A stretch of DNA of 64,000 bases. Source: Eledone cirrhosa. Lineage: Eukaryota. The stretch covers positions 366,296,001 to 366,360,000 of the forward strand of contig OZ024743.1 in the NCBI GenBank assembly GCA_964016885.1. Reading direction: 5' to 3'. Shown piece by piece: positions 14,206 to 50,012 of this stretch (position 1 is the stretch's first letter; the number at the start of each line of letters is the position of its first letter). The notes under the pieces were generated by a model, which saw only the letters and a list, made by a program, of their open reading frames with translations, searched no databases and was not told the origin of the DNA. The translations under genes and the position numbers were made by a program.

Positions 14206-14306
14206 ATTATTACTAATTTATACTTATTCCTAATTAAACTATTTTTCACTGGAAAAAATCTTTCAGCATTTTCTTTTCTTTTTTACTTATATATATATAT
14301 ATATAT

Positions 14307-17121
14307 GATCCGGGGAACACACAAGCCAGGTAGATTATATCCTTACCAGAAGACGTGACAGAGTGTCTGTTGTAAACACTAAATCCCTCCCCCATGAAGA
14401 ATGCACCTCCCAACATAGACCTCATAGTCAGGACGAGACGTACTCGACAGCAGAAGAGGACTATCCTCAGGAGAAAAATATGGAAGCTAAAGGACCCCAC
14501 AGCCAGGAATAAATTTCAAAGCATATTACTTGATGCTTTCGACAGTAAGGAAGAACATTTAGAGTCGGACAATATAGAGGGAGAGTGGGAATTTCTGAAA
14601 GCAAACCTGCTGTTGGCGACAGACGAAGTCTGTGGCTGGAGCAGGCCTGTAGGCAGGAGGAGAGTAACATGGTGGTGGAACAGTAAAGTGGAGGGGTCAA
14701 TTAAGGCCAAAAAGCAGGCTTGGAAAGTATGGCGGGATGGGGGAAGTAGAGAAGACTATCAAGTGGCCAGGAGGGAAGCTAGGAGACAAGTGTACTTAGC
14801 AAGAAGGGAAGCTGAGGAAAGAAAGTTCAAGCATGTTCTACAACGCGATGACCAAAAACGTGAGGTGTTCAGGATTGCTAGGCAATGCGTCAAGGAAAAC
14901 CGTGATATTGTCGGAGAAGTGTGTACTAAACGACGATGGCACACTTGCCATCACCGACGCTGATAAGAAGGTAGCTTGGAAGTGTCACTATGAAAGGCTA
15001 CTAAATGAGGAGAATAAATGGGAGAAAGACAGTCTCCCCCATATCGACCCAATAGAGGGACCAGCAGTGTTAGTCGAGGGGAGTATAATAAGTAAGGCAA
15101 TCAAGGATATGAAGACGGGTAAGGCGGCTGGGCCTTCGGAAATAGTTGCTGAGATGCTGAAGGCATCTGGCACGGTGGGACACACCATGGTCACCCGCAT
15201 AGTTAACCAAGTCGTACAAAATGGGGTTGTTCCGAAGGACTGGCATAGCAGCATCATCGTTAACTGTTATAAGGGTAAAGGAGACGCCCTAGATAGGAGT
15301 AACTATAGAGGCATTAAATTAATCGACCAGGTCATGAAGGTCACGGAAAAAGTAATAGCGCAACTAATCAGAGAGAGAATTGACCTAGATGAAATGCAGT
15401 TCGGGTTTGTGTCAGGCAAAAGTACCACAGACGCTCTTTTCATAGTACGACAACTACAGGAGAAGTACCTAGCTAAAGGTAAACCCCTCTACTTAGCTTT
15501 TGTCGACTTGGAGAAAGCCTTCGACAGAGTCCCCCGCTCCATTATCTGGTGGGCTCTTAGAAAACTAGGCGTTGACGAATGGCTTGTGAGGGCTATACAA
15601 GCCATGTATAAAGAAACAGTCAGCAAGGTTAGAATTAACAACGAATATAGTGAAGAGTTTAGCGTAAAAGTCGGCGTCCATCAGAGCTCTGTTCTCAGCC
15701 CACTACTATTTATTATTGCCCTTCAGGCTATAACAGAGGAGTTCAAGACAGGCTGCCCATGGGAACTCCTATACGCAGACGACCGGACACTCATAGCGGA
15801 ATCAATGGCCGAGCTAGAGAAGAAATTCCAAACATGGAAGCACGGCCTAGAGTCAAAAGGACTTAAAATTAACCTGGCTAAGACCAAAGTACTAGTTTGT
15901 AGGAAAGAAAACAAGGCGGCGGTCCCTTCTGGGAAATGGTCGTGCTCGGTGTGTAGGAAAGGCGTAGGTAGAAACTCCATTTTATGTCCTAAATGCAAAG
16001 TATGGGTGCATAAAAGATGTAGTGGGATCACAGGTAAGCTAACTAAGAACATAGATTTTACATGTGGCCGGTGCTCTGGTGCAATAAGTAGCAGCAAGTG
16101 CCCACAAAATACTAGCTCTTTCAATTGCGCAGAGGGTTCTATAGAAATAGTGGACAGCTTCCGTTACCTGGGCGATAAAATCAGCAGTGGGGGAGGGTGC
16201 TCTGAAAGTACTGTAGCTAGAGTCAGAACTGGTTGGAAAAAGTTCAGAGAGCTTATACCACTATTAGCTGCTAAAGGGTTCTCACTAAAAATGAAAGGCA
16301 GGTTGTACGATGCCTGCATACGAACAGCAATGCTGCATGGCAGTGAGACCTGGGCATTGTGTGCAGAGGATATACGCAGACTAGAGAGGAACGAAGCTTG
16401 CATGCTCCGCTGGATGTGTAACAGTAATATACGTGAACGGCAAAGCATAAACGAACTAAGGAAAAAATTAGAGATAAGAGGGATCAGATGTTGTTTACTC
16501 GAGAGAAGGCTACGTTGGTATGGACACGTGATGCGCATGAAAGTCGATAGCTGTATAACAAAGTGCAGGGCAATAAAGATAGACGGTAGTCACGGAATAG
16601 GCAGACCTAGAAAAACCTGGGACGAGCTGATAAATTCCGACCTCACACACTTACACCTCTCCAAGACAATGTCACTGGACCGAGACCTTTGGCGGTACTC
16701 AGTAACAGAGAAGACCCGCCTTACCTAAATATATAGTAAAACCTACTCCAGCCAGTAGGCATCTCTAACAAAATACACCCCGTCCCACCACCACCACCCC
16801 CACCTCATCCACACCACCCCGTTCTATGTAAAGTTATGTTGGTGCCGCGCCATCGAGGCCGAAACAAATGAGATCGTGTAGGTGTCACGACAAAAAAACA
16901 CACAGTCCACGCTGTAATGTGGCCGTGTAGGCAACACGGTAAAAACCTCCCAGACCCACACTGTAAATGTGGTTGGTGTTAGGAAGGGCATCCAACTGTA
17001 GAAAACCTGCCAGACAGTCCTATGCGAGCAAGACAATCACTCTTGCCTCAAGTGGGACTACCCCCGTCCAAACCCATGCAAGCGTGGAACACGGACGTTA
17101 AACGTTGATGATGATGATGAT
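14307..17121 (+). mobile_element. RTE LINE family A, 5'-truncated
   Basis: End of the APE domain, linker, RT, ~390-bp 3' UTR and (GAT)n tail. Near-identical to 43191-45935 in the opposite orientation. Confidence 0.96.
14394..16728 (+). pseudogene. RTE ORF (linker, RT with PHD-type insert), frameshifted near 14915
   Basis: RT motifs [21 protein letters not shown] (G>S relative to HQGS in sister copies), YADD and FRYLG. A 2-nt deletion splits ORFs 14394-14963 and 14833-16728. Confidence 0.92.
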
Positions 17122-17126
17122 ATATA

Positions 17127-22888: not shown

Positions 22889-23553
22889 ATCATCATCATC
22901 ATCAGGTTTAGCGTCCGTGTTCCACGCTTGCATGGGTTTGGACGGGGGTTTTCCCACTTGAGGCAAGGGTGGTTGTCTTGCTCGCATAGGACTGTCTGGC
23001 GGGTTTTCTACAGTTGGATGCCCTTCCTAACACCAACCACATTTACAGTGTGGGGCTGGGAGGTTTTTACCGTGTTGCCTACACGGCCACATTACAGCGT
23101 GGACTGTCTGGCGGGTTTTCTACAGCTGGATGCCCTTCCTAACACCAACCACATTTACAGTGTGGGGCTGGGAGGTTTTTACCGTGTTGCCTACACGGCC
23201 ACATTTACAGCGTGGACTGTGTGTTTTTTGTCGTGACACCTACACGATCTCATTTGTTTCGGCCTGGATGTTGTGGGACCAACATAACTTTACATTGAAA
23301 GGGGCGGTGTGGGTGGGGTGGAGGTGGTGGGACGGGGGTGTGTTTTGATAGAGGTGCCTACTGACTGTAGTAGGTTTTTACTTTGTATTTAGGTAAGGCG
23401 GGTCTTCTCTATTACTGAGTACCGCCAAAGGTCTCGGTCCAGTGACATTGTCTTGGAGAGGTGTAAGCGTGTGAGGTCGGAATTTATCAGCTCGTCCCAT
23501 GTTTTTCTGGGTCTGCCTACTCCGTGGCTACCGTCTATCTTTATTGCCCTGCA
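22889..23553 (-). mobile_element. 3' end of RTE subfamily A2 (duplicated 3' UTR)
   Basis: Near-identical to 54024-54693, including a 112-bp tandem duplication. Encodes CRAIKIDG...EKTRLT*. Confidence 0.94.
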
Positions 23554-43013: not shown

Positions 43014-43190
43014 TATATATATATGTATGTATATATATATATATATGTATGTATGTATGTATGTATATATGTGTATGTATGTATGTATATGTATGTATGT
43101 ATATGTAAGTATATATATATGTATGTATATGTATGTATGTATATGTAAGTATATATATATGTATGTATTTATATGTATATGTATATATGT

Positions 43191-45935
43191 ATCATCATCA
43201 TCATCATCATCAACGTTTAACGTCCGTGTTCCACGCTTGCATGGGTTTGGACGGGGGTAGTCCCACTTGAGGCAAGAGTGATTGTCTTGCTCGCATAGGA
43301 CTGTCTGGCAGGTTTTCTACAGTTGGATGCCCTTCCTAACACCAACCACATTTACAGTGTGGGTCTGGGAGGTTTTTACCGTGTTGCCTACACGGCCACA
43401 TTACAGCGTGGACTGTGTGTTTTTTTGTCGTGACACCTACACGATCTCATTTGTTTCGGCCTCGATGGCGCGGCACCAACATAACTTTACATAGAACGGG
43501 GTGGTGTGGATCGGGTGGGGGTGGTGGGACGGGGTGTATTTTGTTAGAGATGCCTACTGGCTGGAGTAGGTTTTACTATATATTTAGGTAAGGCGGGTCT
43601 TCTCTGTTACTGAGTACCGCCAAAGGTCTCGGTCCAGTGACATTGTCTTGGAGAGGTGTAAGTGTGTGATGTCGGAGTTTATCAGCTCGTCCCAGGTTTT
43701 TCTAGGTCTGCCTATTCCGTGACTACCGTCTATCTTTATTGCCCTGCACTTTGTTATACAGCTATCGACTTTCATGCGCATCACGTGTCCATACCAACGT
43801 AGCCTTCTCTCGAGTAAACAACATCTGATCCCTCTTATCTCTAATTTTTTCCTTAGTTCGTTTATGCTTTGCCGTTCACGTATATTACTGTTACACATCC
43901 AGCGGAGCATGCAAGCTTCGTTCCTCTCTAGTCTGCGTATATCCTCTGCACACAATGCCCAGGTCTCACTGCCATGCAGCATTGCTGTTCGTATGCAGGC
44001 ATCGTACAACCTGCCTTTCATTTTTAGTGAGAACCCTTTAGCAGCTAATAGTGGTATAAGCTCTCTGAACTTTTTCCAACCAGTTCTGACTCTAGCTACA
44101 GTACTTTCAGAGCACCCTCCCCCACTGCTGATTTTATCGCCCAGGTAACGGAAGCTGTCCACTATTTCTATAGAACCCTCTGCGCAATTGAAAGAGCTAG
44201 TAGTTTGTGGGCACTTGCTGCTACTTATTGCACCAGAGCACCGGCCACATGTAAAATCTATGTTCTTAGTTAGCTTACCTGTGATCCCACTACATCTTTT
44301 ATGCACCCATACTTTGCATTTAGGACATAAAATGGAGTTTCTACCTACGCCTTTCCTACACACCGAGCACGACCATTTCCCAGAAGGGACCGCCGCCTTG
44401 TTTTCTTTCCTACAAACTAGTACTTTGGTCTTAGCCAGGTTAATTTTAAGTCCTTTTGACTCTAGGCCGTGCTTCCATGTTTGGAATTTCTTCTCTAGCT
44501 CGGCCATTGATTCCGCTATGAGTGTCAGGTCGTCTGCGTATAGGAGTTCCCATGGGCAGCCTGTCTTGAACTCCTCTGTTATAGCCTGAAGGGCAATAAT
44601 AAATAGTAGTGGGCTGAGAACAGAGCCCTGATGGACGCCAACTTTTACGCTAAACTCTTCACTATATTCGTTGTTAATTCTAACCTTGCTGACTGTTTCT
44701 TTATACATGGCTTGTATAGCCCTCACAAGCCATTCGTCAACGCCTAGTTTTCTAAGAGCCCACCAGATAATGGAGCGGGGGACTCTGTCGAAGGCTTTCT
44801 CCAAGTCGACAAAAGCTAAGTAGAGGGGTTTACCTTTAGCTAGGTACTTCTCCTGTAGTTGTCGTACTATGAAAAGAGCGTCTGTGGTACTTTTGCCTGA
44901 CACAAACCCGAACTGCATTTCATCTAGGTCAATTCTCTCTCTGATTAGTTGCGCTATTACTTTTTCCGTGACCTTCATGACCTGGTCGATTAATTTAATG
45001 CCTCTATAGTTACTCCTATCTAGGGCGTCTCCTTTACCCTTATAACAGTTAACGATGATGCTGCTATGCCAGTCCTTCGGAACAACCCCATTCTGTACGA
45101 CTTGGTTAACTATGCGGGTGACCATGGTGTGTCCCACCGTGCCAGATGCCTTCAGCATCTCAGCAACTATTTCCGAAGGCCCAGCCGCCTTACCCGTCTT
45201 CATATCCTTGATTGCCTTACTTATTATACTCCCCTCGACTAACACTGCTGGTCCCTCTATTGGGTCGATATGGGGGAGACTGCCTTTCTCCCAATTATTC
45301 TCCTCATTTAGTAGCCTTTCATAGTGACACTTCCAAGCTACCTTCTTATCAGCGTCGGTGATGGCAAGTGTGCCATCGTCGTTTAGTACACACTTCTCCC
45401 CGACAATATCACGGTTTTCCTTGACGCATTGCCTAGCAATCCTGAACACCTCACGTTTTTGGTCATCGCGTTGTAGAACATGCTTGAACTTTCTTTCCTC
45501 AGCTTCCCTTCTTGCTAAGTACACTTGTCTCCTAGCTTCCCTCCTGGCCACTTGATAGTCCTCTCTACTTCCCCCATCCCGCCATACTTTCCAAGCCTGC
45601 TTTTTGGCCTTAATTGACCCCTCCACCTTACTGTTCCACCACCATGTTACTCTCCTCCTGCCTACAGGCCTGCTCCAGCCACAGACTTCGTCTGTCGCCA
45701 ACAGCAGGTTTGCTTTCAGAAATTCCCACTCTCCCTCTATATTGTCCGACTCTAAATGTTCTTCCTTACTGTCGAAAGCATCAAGTAATATGCTTTGAAA
45801 TTTATTCCTGGCTGTGGGGTCCTTTAGCTTCCATATTTTTCTCCTGAGGATAGTCCTCTTCTGTTGTCGAGTACGTCTCGTCCTGACTATGAGGTCACTA
45901 ATTATCAGTCTATGTTGGGAGGTGCATTCTTCACG
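43191..45935 (-). mobile_element. RTE LINE family A, 5'-truncated
   Basis: Near-identical to 14307-17121, with a (GAT)n tail; TA-bounded. Confidence 0.97.
43584..45935 (-). CDS. RTE reverse transcriptase ORF (uninterrupted, lacks most of APE)
   Basis: Open frame with DLEKAFD, HQGS, YADD, C4HC3 insert and FRYLG. The upstream Met comes from flanking TA sequence. Confidence 0.9.
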
Positions 45936-46060
45936 TATATATATGTATATATGCAAATAACTACATGTATCACCTATCCTTCCTTTTTTTCTCTCTCTCG
46001 ATATGTAAATACTTTATGTATATATATATATGTATATGTATGTATATATATATATGTATG

Positions 46061-46091
<31 letters not shown>

Positions 46092-46184
46092 GTATATATA
46101 TGTATATATTTATGTATATATATGTGTATATATGTATATATATATGTATATATATATGTATATGTATGTATATGTATGTATATG

Positions 46185-46271
<87 letters not shown>

Positions 46272-46314
46272 GTATATATATGTATATATGTATATATATA
46301 TGTATATAAATATA

Positions 46315-46363
<49 letters not shown>

Positions 46364-46536
46364 ATATATATGTATATAAATATATATATGTATATATATA
46401 TATATATATATATGAATATAGACATAGAATATTCGAAAATATTCTGTATGTTTATAATAAACATTTTGAAGACCTAATCGCTATAGAATAGAATACGTCA
46501 CGTATTACAATTAGATTCTCGATAAAAGCAAGGGAA

Positions 46537-46579
46537 GTAATCTACGCGTTTCATTCTTGTTAGAAATCATCAGGACTAC
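46537..46579 (-). ncRNA. Minimal type I hammerhead ribozyme
   Basis: GUAGUC-CUGAUGA-U-UUCU(AACA)AGAA-U-GAAA-CGCG-UA-GAUUAC. Confidence 0.85.
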
Positions 46580-46846
46580 ATATCCAGTGCTTTTATCGAG
46601 AATGACACAGCTAGAGACTTATAGAATACTTAGCTGTGTACAGGAACTGGTTTGAAAGAGCGGTTGCCGGTCCGGCAGAAATTAGAAATTGGAATAAATG
46701 CTCTGAAATAGCGATATATATGTGAATATAGACATAGAATATTCGAAAATATTCTGTATGTTTATAATAAACATTTTGAAGACCTAATCGCTATAGAATA
46801 GAATACGTCACGTATTACAATTAGATTCTCGATAAAAGCAAGGGAA

Positions 46847-46889
46847 GTAATCTACGCGTTTCATTCTTGTTAGAAATCATCAGGACTAC
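46847..46889 (-). ncRNA. Minimal type I hammerhead ribozyme
   Basis: Identical to 46537-46579, 310 bp away. Confidence 0.85.
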
Positions 46890-47036
46890 ATATCCAGTGC
46901 TTTTATCGAGAATGACACAGCTAGAGACTTATAATTTCTGCCGGACCGGCAACCGCTCTTTCAAACCAGTTCCTGTACACAGCTAAGTATTCTATAAGTC
47001 TCTAGCTGTGTCATTCTCGATAAAAGCACTGGATAT

Positions 47037-47079
47037 GTAGTCCTGATGATTTCTAACAAGAATGAAACGCGTAGATTAC
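47037..47079 (+). ncRNA. Minimal type I hammerhead ribozyme
   Basis: GTAGTC CTGATGA TTTCTAACAAGAAT GAAA CGCG TA GATTAC; predicted cleavage 3' of A47073. Confidence 0.85.
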
Positions 47080-47346
47080 TTCCCTTGCTTTTATCGAGAA
47101 TCTAATTGTAATACGTGACGTATTCTATTCTATAGCGACTAGGTCTTCAAAATGTTTATTATAAACATACAGAATATTTTCGAATATTCTATGTCTATAT
47201 TCACATATATATCGCTATTTCAGAGCATTTATTCCAATTTCTAATTTCTGCCGGACCGGCAACCGCTCTTTCAAACCAGTTCCTGTACACAGCTAAGTAT
47301 TCTATAAGTCTCTAGCTGTGTCATTCTCGATAAAAGCACTGGATAT

Positions 47347-47389
47347 GTAGTCCTGTTGATTTCTAACAAGAATGAAACGCGTAGATTAC
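47347..47389 (+). ncRNA. Hammerhead ribozyme copy with A6U core change
   Basis: The core reads CTGTTGA (T47356) instead of CTGATGA; otherwise identical to the other three. Confidence 0.8.
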
Positions 47390-47542
47390 TTCCCTTGCTT
47401 TTATCGAGAATCTAATTGTAATACGTGACGTATTCTATTCTATAGCGATTAGGTCTTCAAAATGTTTATTATAAACATACAGAATATTTTCGAATATTCT
47501 ATGTCTATATTCACATATATATCGCTATTTCAGAGCATTTAT

Positions 47543-49426
<1,884 letters not shown>

Positions 49427-49427
49427 C

Positions 49428-50012
49428 TTAAATAGGTCTACAGTTAAATTCTCATACTCTACAACAAATAACATAAAACAAAATATAAGTGCATATAATG
49501 CATATAAATGTAAGAAAACCATAAGTATACCACCAGTACATCAAATTAACAATAATATCTCCTCAAATACAGAATTAACGAAAGGATGTAACTGTAGAAA
49601 CAAAACAAACTGCCCATTAAAAGGGAATTGTCTTGTTAACAACATAGTCTATAAATGTAATGTTAAAACTAAAGATTCTATTTGCTCATATATAGGAGCT
49701 ACCTCTAACAATTTTAAGACAAGGTATAATACCCACAAACATAGCTTTAAAAATGCCGCACTGGCTAATACAACATCTCTAGCAGAAAAAATCAATAGTT
49801 ATAAAAATAAAAATATAAAATATGATTTGACCTGGAGTGTGCTCAAAAGAGCCACCCCTTATCAAAATAATAGAAAGGAATGTAGATTATGTTCCCAAGA
49901 ACTATTTGAAATAATGAAGTCTAGGGATATCTTATTAAATAAAAGACAGGAATTAATTATATCGTGTAATCATAAACTAAAAAAAACATTTAAATATTAT
50001 AAACCTAATTAA
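49428..50012 (+). CDS. C-terminal GIY-YIG endonuclease of a 5'-truncated Penelope-like element (Naiad-like)
   Basis: [10 protein letters not shown]...[22 protein letters not shown]...[20 protein letters not shown]...CRLC..E...LLNKRQE...CNH: a Cys-rich linker plus IVY/YIG, R, E and N catalytic positions. The frame is open to TAA at 50012. Confidence 0.9.

What the first reader, a model, noticed from the sequence alone, without database searches (positions are those of the whole stretch)
46413..47548. 310-nt hammerhead monomer array: candidate retrozyme / viroid-like circular RNA element
Seen: a non-coding 310-bp unit, near-identical across about 3.7 copies. Each copy carries a minimal type I HHR (stem I GUAGUC/GAUUAC, CUGAUGA, GAAA, palindromic ACGCGU stem III, GUA site) set on a perfect 16-bp helix (ATTCTCGATAAAAGCA/TGCTTTTATCGAGAAT). 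The rest of the unit is packed with stems: ATGTTTAT/ATAAACAT, AGAATATT/AATATTCT, AATACG/CGTATT, TGCCG/CGGCA, ACACAGCTA/TAGCTGTGT, ATAGCGAT/ATCGCTAT. Known: animal non-LTR retrozymes are tandem units of a few hundred nt with minimal type I HHRs that cleave as dimers, give circRNAs and are thought to be mobilised by PLEs. Inferred: a minus-strand transcript is cut at 46853 and 46543 to release an exact 310-nt monomer. I do not know whether this family has been described.
Basis: partly seen in the sequence, partly recalled or inferred. Interest (0 to 1): 0.9.

Follow-up and report, generated by a model that had tools for sequence, protein, structure and literature searches.

The report
Two-armed ribozyme retrotransposon, likely circle-copied
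This is one of roughly 1,600 insertions of a young, non-coding jumping element built from a 310-base unit with a hammerhead-ribozyme motif; each sits in a TA repeat as two back-to-back runs of copies, a footprint that likely records a Penelope-type reverse transcriptase circling one small RNA ring from both ends of a DNA cut.

Summary
The 310-bp unit and its hammerhead are real. The locus, however, is not one 3.7-copy tandem: it is two head-to-head arms (1.7 units on minus, 2.0 on plus) inside (TA)n, and one of the four ribozyme cores is mutated. The core motif occurs 14,356 times in the 3.0-Gb genome (control 0). In 27 of 28 two-armed loci one arm ends short and the other carries an extra ~36-nt tail. 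Junctions show microhomology, and four informative sites show 12-14-bp target duplications. These are Penelope-like element (PLE) integration marks; a resident Neptune-type PLE family shows the short/long pair in 8 of 8 loci. Units are locus-homogeneous (196 of 232 identical to their locus type; 12 types in 25 loci; arms agree in 16 of 19), and 1 of 58 arm starts lies at the ribozyme cut. Best reading: a non-autonomous, PLE-mobilised retrozyme whose circular monomer is reverse-transcribed by rolling circle from both cut strands, with some later local duplication. Cleavage, circular RNA and the partner PLE are not shown. No cephalopod retrozyme or two-armed retrozyme turned up in the papers searched.

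The parts
46015..46412 (.). Left (TA)n/(TATG)n target microsatellite
46413..46933 (-). Left arm, 1.7 units read leftward; 'short' 3' end at 46413 (unit position ~271, merges with TA); 5' start at unit position 62
46932..47548 (+). Right arm, 2.0 units; 'long' (tailed) 3' end at 47548 (unit position 307)
46932..46933 (.). Head-to-head junction with 2-nt overlap
46847..46889 (-). Minimal type I hammerhead 1, intact core; predicted cut after 46853
46537..46579 (-). Minimal type I hammerhead 2, intact core; predicted cut after 46543
46543..46852 (-). Predicted cut-to-cut 310-nt monomer; the only one in the window flanked by two intact cores
   Evidence: release and circularisation are inferred
47037..47079 (+). 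Minimal type I hammerhead 3, intact core; predicted cut after 47073
47347..47389 (+). Hammerhead 4 with core A6 changed to U at 47356; likely inactive
   Evidence: core consensus from PMC7151607 passage
47013..47101 (+). 16-bp helix (47013-47028 with 47086-47101) enclosing the hammerhead; present in each full unit
47513..47548 (+). About 36-nt 'tail', present at only one of the two outer ends
47132..47286 (+). Block best conserved with subfamily B (unit 201-310 plus 1-45); spans both end sites; candidate PLE-protein recognition element (inferred)
47549..49426 (.). Right (TA)n/(TATG)n target microsatellite
49428..50012 (+). Separate 5'-truncated Neptune-type PLE fragment (linker and GIY-YIG part) at the far end of the same TA run; not contiguous with the array

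Best explanation
This is a non-coding, hammerhead-bearing retroelement family that sits in TA repeats as two head-to-head runs of a 310-nt unit with Penelope-type ends, and it is likely copied by a borrowed Penelope-like enzyme rolling round a circular monomer RNA from both strands of one staggered cut. Shown: the architecture, the two fixed ends, the tail, the target duplication, junction microhomology, one sequence type per locus, and conserved ribozyme structure. Inferred steps: (1) read-through transcription of an array; (2) hammerhead cleavage as a dimer through the palindromic stem III, then ligation to a 310-nt circle by a host ligase; (3) a PLE RT-GIY-YIG protein, likely Neptune-type and dimeric, binds the conserved block and nicks both strands of (TA)n 12-14 nt apart; (4) one 3' end pairs with the AU-rich short site (unit ~271-281) and the other starts ~36 nt downstream; (5) each RT circles for up to about 10 laps; (6) the two cDNA ends join through 1-6 nt of microhomology and repair fills in the duplication; (7) some long arms grow later by local duplication.
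For: PLE signature: 27 of 28 two-armed loci have one short and one long end, with none short/short or long/long. Of the 17 chosen without regard to their ends, 16 show it. A resident PLE family shows the same in 8 of 8 two-armed loci, and subfamily B in most of 18 loci viewed. This matches the inverted copy with a one-sided 30-40-bp tail in PMC8557442 and the two RT start sites with both strands cut and extended in PMC11167929. One event: 12-14-bp duplications abut both ends in 4 loci with informative flanks (L032, L131, L133, L140). Overlaps of 2 nt or more occur at 17 of 28 junctions against 18% expected, p 7e-7. Two independent primings: the short arm is longer in 13 of 27 loci and the long arm in 14 (Wilcoxon p 0.70). 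Primer pairing: TA overwrites unit position 272 or earlier at 24 of 30 short ends. Monomer bottleneck: 196 of 232 monomers equal their locus's commonest type, there are 12 types in 25 loci, and arms agree in 16 of 19 against 14% expected between loci. Only 1 of 58 arm starts is within 3 nt of the ribozyme cut. No locus carries a clearly inherited parental junction (L127 is ambiguous). Ribozyme selection: 22 of 45 consensus pairs change on both sides across A and B; in B the C3-G8 pair is C-G in 28 and U-A in 68 of the first 100 listed matches (hand count). An independent run holds many different head-to-head joints and TA ends (X1).
Against: No RNA evidence was obtained, so cleavage and circles are untested. 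Only 1 of 9 Xenopus dimers cleaved in vitro in bioRxiv 10.64898/2026.07.22.740005. In the PAc system hammerhead cleavage was dispensable and uncut RNA was the main template. Stem II of family A is weak, with a U-U pair at its base and -0.6 kcal/mol. 7 of 33 private variants recur in more than one unit of a locus, including a 7-unit periodic pair in L189, so local duplication does occur. The longest arms (14 to 22 or more units) are mostly the ones showing it. Homogeneous master arrays copied as uncut linear transcripts would also give one type per locus. No autonomous PLE sharing the tail was found, and the tails of resident PLEs are longer (about 55-90 nt where read). The sample is 36 loci, mostly from the first 54 Mb of one contig; 14 were chosen for having a tailed end. 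The covariation counts reflect two subfamilies, not independent events.
Confidence: 0.65

Rival explanations
1. PLE protein copies uncut linear multimeric transcripts of existing arrays, and arrays are regrown and homogenised locally by unequal crossover. The ribozyme is a passenger.
For: Unit-shared variants occur in L031, L185, L189 and L190. Uncut RNA was the main template in vitro. Local amplification is the model in the 2026 preprint.
Against: Twelve locus-fixed types in 25 loci need repeated one-unit bottlenecks and regrowth while arrays are still nearly mutation-free. Arms run to about 10 units while parental arms average about 4.6, yet no clearly inherited junction was seen in 28 loci. 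The catalytic pair and stems are compensated.
Confidence: 0.25
2. The inversion arises by fold-back self-priming, with one arm being a DNA copy of the other, rather than by two primings.
For: Proposed for rotifer Penelope inversions in PMC3846280 (passage). Both arms share one sequence type. Two loci join through the unit's own 16-bp inverted repeat.
Against: Neither end class is consistently the longer arm (13 against 14). Junctions join unrelated unit positions through 1-6 nt rather than palindromes. Both target strands are extended in vitro.
Confidence: 0.1
3. The RT jumps end to end across linear ribozyme-cut monomers.
For: It would give tandem copies without any circle.
Against: Monomer joints at the cut site are exact, and sequence types are not mixed within arrays. 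Only 1 of 58 arm starts is at the cut.
Confidence: 0.04
4. The unit is only the terminal repeat of a coding PLE, or the palindrome is an assembly artefact.
For: Its hammerhead core and stem II match a coding PLE's at 25-26 of 28 bases. PLE fragments lie within 10 kb of 6 of 35 loci.
Against: None of those fragments is contiguous in sense with a unit. Each locus has its own junction, and an independent run shows many such joints.
Confidence: 0.03

Closest known systems
Metazoan non-LTR retrozymes (Cervera and de la Pena 2020, PMC7229834; review PMC7761336)
   Same: Non-coding tandem units of 150-450 bp, low GC, a type I hammerhead in each unit, a self-paired monomer, and PLEs in the same genome. 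A weak palindromic helix III and a U-U pair at the base of helix II also occur in the axolotl variants.
   Different: Described as head-to-tail arrays with no motif naming the helper. Here most loci examined are two inverted arms with a one-sided tail in (TA)n. Circular RNA is shown there and not here.
EN+ Penelope-like elements, Neptune type (PMC8557442, PMC11167929, PMC3846280, PMC4209133)
   Same: Inverted 5'-truncated copy, one-sided 30-40-bp tail, microsatellite target, short target duplication, microhomology junction, and a minimal hammerhead upstream of the two end sites.
   Different: No ORF. The repeated unit is 310 nt and arms hold up to 10-22 units. The tail sequence matches no coding PLE seen here.
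Xenopus retrozymes as non-autonomous PLE derivatives (bioRxiv 10.64898/2026.07.22.740005)
   Same: A PLE-dependent tandem hammerhead repeat; the core resembles a resident PLE terminal repeat.
   Different: That work argues from co-occurrence and sequence trees and suggests local amplification. Here the insertion footprints indicate arrays written at integration.
MRC1 and other non-autonomous Chlamys elements (PMC8557442)
   Same: Non-autonomous PLE dependants with multicopy head-to-tail insertions.
   Different: Green algae and an N-terminal-EN clade, mostly without hammerheads, and with 3' ends similar to their autonomous partners. No such partner was found here.

Membership tests
Non-LTR retrozyme | Tandem units of 150-450 bp, dispersed, GC below 50% | tested here: met
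   310-bp unit; 14,356 core matches; arrays of up to 22 or more units
Non-LTR retrozyme | Type I hammerhead in each unit | tested here: met
   Core and stems, covariation; 3 of 4 intact in the window; Rfam below threshold
Non-LTR retrozyme | No protein-coding region | tested here: met
   Longest stop-free stretch is 59 codons on the looped unit
Non-LTR retrozyme | Target-site duplication longer than 4 bp | tested here: met
   12-14 bp in 4 informative loci of 28; most of the rest are pure TA and cannot be read
Non-LTR retrozyme | Self-cleavage | not testable with these tools
   Needs in vitro transcription
Non-LTR retrozyme | Accumulates as circular RNA | tested here: inconclusive
   No usable RNA data; see Tried and rejected
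PLE-mobilised (non-autonomous) element | Inverted 5'-truncated copy with a one-sided 30-40-bp tail | tested here: met
   27 of 28 two-armed loci; tail about 36 nt
PLE-mobilised (non-autonomous) element | Microsatellite target bias | tested here: met
   TA-type flanks at nearly all ends, L140 being the exception
PLE-mobilised (non-autonomous) element | 3' end shared with an autonomous PLE | tested here: inconclusive
   Only the hammerhead core and stem II are shared with PLE-C. No tail match in the PLE ends held, but few families were sampled.
Autonomous PLE | RT plus GIY-YIG ORF in the element | tested here: not met
Viroid-like replicon | Ribozymes in both polarities or RNA-to-RNA replication | tested here: inconclusive
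   No antisense core in the unit; a relic-like match is weak, 6 of 400 shuffles as good; replication cannot be tested here

The most novel reading that the evidence does not exclude
About 1,600 young loci are a genomic record of twin-primed rolling-circle retrotransposition. One PLE enzyme dimer opens a TA repeat and sends two reverse transcriptases round the same 310-nt ribozyme circle from two fixed start sites. This would be direct footprint evidence that animal retrozyme arrays are written at insertion from circular RNA by PLE machinery, and that the PLE tail and inversion come from priming on both strands. It also points to a ~155-nt conserved block as a portable recruitment signal.
Probability: 0.55. 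Interest if true: 0.8.

Novelty: new variant of a known kind. Interest (0 to 1): 0.62.

Why it matters
How animal retrozymes move has been a hypothesis. Rolling-circle copying by PLEs (PMC7229834) competes with local amplification of a PLE end (2026 preprint), and both papers call the mechanism unresolved. This family is young, numerous and keeps readable ends, so the question can be settled by counting across about 1,600 loci. It can also be tested in vitro with one 310-nt RNA and a resident intact PLE protein. The same loci test the twin-priming explanation of PLE tails and inversions. The element class itself is known.

Tried and rejected
Expression: no RNA holder listed (6 runs, none on record as RNA). 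Four of the six were laid. X4, X5 and X6 each gave one 340-nt contig (310+30, a closed loop) at depth 10-15 under other organism labels. A tandem array, a circle or trace carry-over would all give that, so it is not used. Rfam on 14 kb gave only microsatellite noise. Partner search: the abundant 830-aa Neptune-type family has unrelated ends. In L038 a B array abuts a truncated Neptune-type ORF head-to-head, but that PLE's end is unrelated. None of 15 tail-selected loci was a coding PLE. A DNA search with the PLE-C end found nothing because common words are skipped; a pattern search then gave 17,272 matches. Two pattern searches meant to exclude A/B units could not be run, so the partner remains open. 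An antisense hammerhead relic at unit 59-102 was rejected as weak: 28 of 44 matches, 6 of 400 shuffles as good, and B scores the same elsewhere. An internal Pol III promoter was rejected by eye: the A/B-box look-alikes are about 9 nt apart and T4 runs interrupt the unit (consensus recalled, no call). The variant at 47139 recurring in four loci is explained by ascertainment, since the query carried it. Pfam did not recognise the PLE RTs, so their assignment rests on motifs. Earlier-findings look-ups were empty. Literature searches found no cephalopod or two-armed retrozyme. The family may be listed in any of these.

Full report
OBSERVATION. The layout is different. Tandem Repeats Finder sees 2.0 copies at 46932-47548, and 46413-46933 is the reverse complement (530-nt inverted arms). 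The locus is a minus-strand arm of 1.7 units and a plus-strand arm of 2.0 units joined head-to-head with a 2-nt overlap, inside 412 and 1,886 nt of TA-type repeat. Hammerhead cores start at 46883 and 46573 (minus) and at 47043 and 47353 (plus); the last has A6 changed to U. Only the minus arm could release a full monomer, 46852-46543. It folds well below shuffles (z -4.2; circular z -4.5), with stem I and the 16-bp helix at 96-100% pairing probability. Rfam support is weak (HH9 19.2 bits). No frame of the looped unit stays open beyond 59 codons.

FAMILY. The genome has 3.0 Gb in 1,796 contigs. The core pattern matches 14,356 times, with 0 for the reversed control. This misses CUGAAGA variants, and 1 of the 100 listed rows was unrelated. 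A tail-plus-TA pattern gives 2,058 forward matches; reverse matches are counted up to three times. Of 62 distinct sites in the 100 listed rows, 24 were family A by hand count, which gives roughly 1,600 A loci as a rough estimate. An older subfamily B is colinear with A, has a different hammerhead and shorter arms, and has the same ends.

ARCHITECTURE. I examined 36 A loci: the window, 6, 15 and 14. One search used 34 of them, leaving out the one-armed L034 and L036, and found 28 two-armed loci. The others were one-armed, interrupted or cut by a gap or the fetch edge. In 27 of 28, one arm ends at unit ~281 and the other at 305-310, with none short/short or long/long. Eleven of the 28 had been chosen for a long end; among the 17 unselected, 16 fit. 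At 24 of 30 short ends TA replaces unit position 272 or earlier (one internal unit row excluded). The true short end is therefore ~271, the tail is ~36 nt, and the target repeat appears to pair with the AU-rich template. Four loci with readable flanks have 12-14-bp duplications against both ends, the clearest being L140, outside a TA run. Junction overlaps of 2 nt or more occur in 17 of 28 against 18% expected (BLAST overlaps compared with exact simulated ones). The short arm is longer in 13 loci and the long arm in 14. Run X1 holds at least 15 different head-to-head joints and TA loose ends, so the form is not an assembly artefact.

PLE LINK. PMC8557442 (passages; supplement searched) describes an inverted 5'-truncated copy, a one-sided 30-40-bp tail and (TA)n bias, and lists Naiad and Hydra PLEs in octopuses. 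PMC11167929 (parts 1-2 of 4) shows a PLE protein cutting and extending both strands from two internal start sites that bound the tail, with a predicted dimer. This genome holds young Neptune-type PLEs, classed by the cysteine linker, GIY-YIG and C-terminal CCHH-like motifs: an 830-aa family and PLE-C, with an uninterrupted 758-codon frame between two hammerheads (L216) and 17,272 core matches. PLE-C has the short/long pair in 8 of 8 two-armed loci (two corrected on reading). Its core and stem II match family A at 25-26 of 28 bases, but its tail is different and longer. No PLE ORF is contiguous in sense with a unit in 35 loci plus the window; 6 of the 35 have fragments nearby. The helper is not identified.

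TEMPLATE. Across 25 loci with two or more full monomers, 196 of 232 equal their locus's commonest monomer and there are 12 such types. The two arms agree in 16 of 19 loci against 14% between loci, and the three misses involve arms with one or two monomers. One of 58 arm starts lies at the ribozyme cut, so templates were not cut linear RNAs. Each insertion seems to pass through one monomer sequence and come out as many copies, which a circle gives directly. Against this, 7 of 33 private variants recur within a locus, L189 has a 7-unit periodic pair, and three of the four loci with arms over 14 units show such sharing. Local duplication therefore adds to long arms, and linear copying of homogenised master arrays is not excluded.

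RIBOZYME. In a 14-unit A/B alignment, 22 of 45 predicted pairs change on both sides, including stems I and II and the long helix. These changes mostly separate the two subfamilies and are few independent events. In B the core positions 3 and 8 read C-G in 28, U-A in 68, C-A in 3 and U-G in 1 of the first 100 of 1,865 matches. C3-G8 pairing is supported by the rescue experiment; that U3-A8 stays active is recalled, not found. Stem III is a 6-nt palindrome (duplex -7.5 kcal/mol), which fits dimer cleavage (PMC4209133 passages). Stem II is weak, and most Xenopus dimers did not cleave.

COMPARISON AND NOVELTY. It meets every DNA-testable feature of non-LTR retrozymes (PMC7229834 parts 2-4 of 6; PMC7761336 passages). 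Cleavage and circles are untested. It works like a non-autonomous PLE. Those papers propose rolling-circle copying by PLEs as a hypothesis. The 2026 preprint (parts 1 and 3 of 5 and passages) suggests local amplification. PMC3846280 (passages) suggests fold-back priming for inversions. Eight searches found no cephalopod retrozyme and no two-armed, tailed retrozyme array; unread supplements, Repbase and Dfam may hold it.

VERDICT. A real, young, abundant retrozyme family in a PLE-type two-armed form. PLE mobilisation in one event is about 0.9 likely. The full circular, twin-primed mechanism is about 0.65 likely. Interest 0.62.

Noticed in passing
L046:9179-9472, L156, L162, L165, L174; A large branch of subfamily B has a U3-A8 core in place of C3-G8 (68 of 100 listed matches). 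B arms are mostly under 2.5 units, so weaker cleavage might go with shorter arrays.
   Followed up: partly
L216:4465-6738 (minus); PLE-C, an uninterrupted Neptune-type element with 17,272 hammerhead matches. Many copies are tiny two-armed inserts whose arms both begin 5-15 nt upstream of the core.
   Followed up: partly
L038:4914-10000: A subfamily B array abuts a 5'-truncated Neptune-type ORF head-to-head at about 6857; possibly a mixed insertion or a nested one.
   Followed up: partly
unit positions 245-265; Nine of 27 short-end arms start 6-26 nt upstream of their own end site, near whole laps and at a UUCG hairpin (about 2 expected). It could be RT stalling or microhomology bias.
   Followed up: no
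window 43190-45933, 14302-17126, 54242-59011: Three copies of a young LINE with RT and PHD-finger domains; two are 99% identical over 2.7 kb and inverted.
   Followed up: no
window 49428-50012: A truncated Neptune-type PLE fragment at the far end of the same TA run.
   Followed up: partly
L045:3613-4500; At least ten other minimal-hammerhead families occur in TA runs. One (family D, in L045) repeats in tandem and may be another retrozyme.
   Followed up: no
L127:2944-3355: The same inversion junction occurs twice within one locus.
   Followed up: no
runs X4, X5, X6; Near-identical 340-nt looped contigs under three other organism labels; carry-over, diet or transfer not resolved.
   Followed up: no
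window 22989-23246 and 54130-54387: A 112-bp tandem duplication within a dispersed repeat at the LINE 3' region.
   Followed up: no
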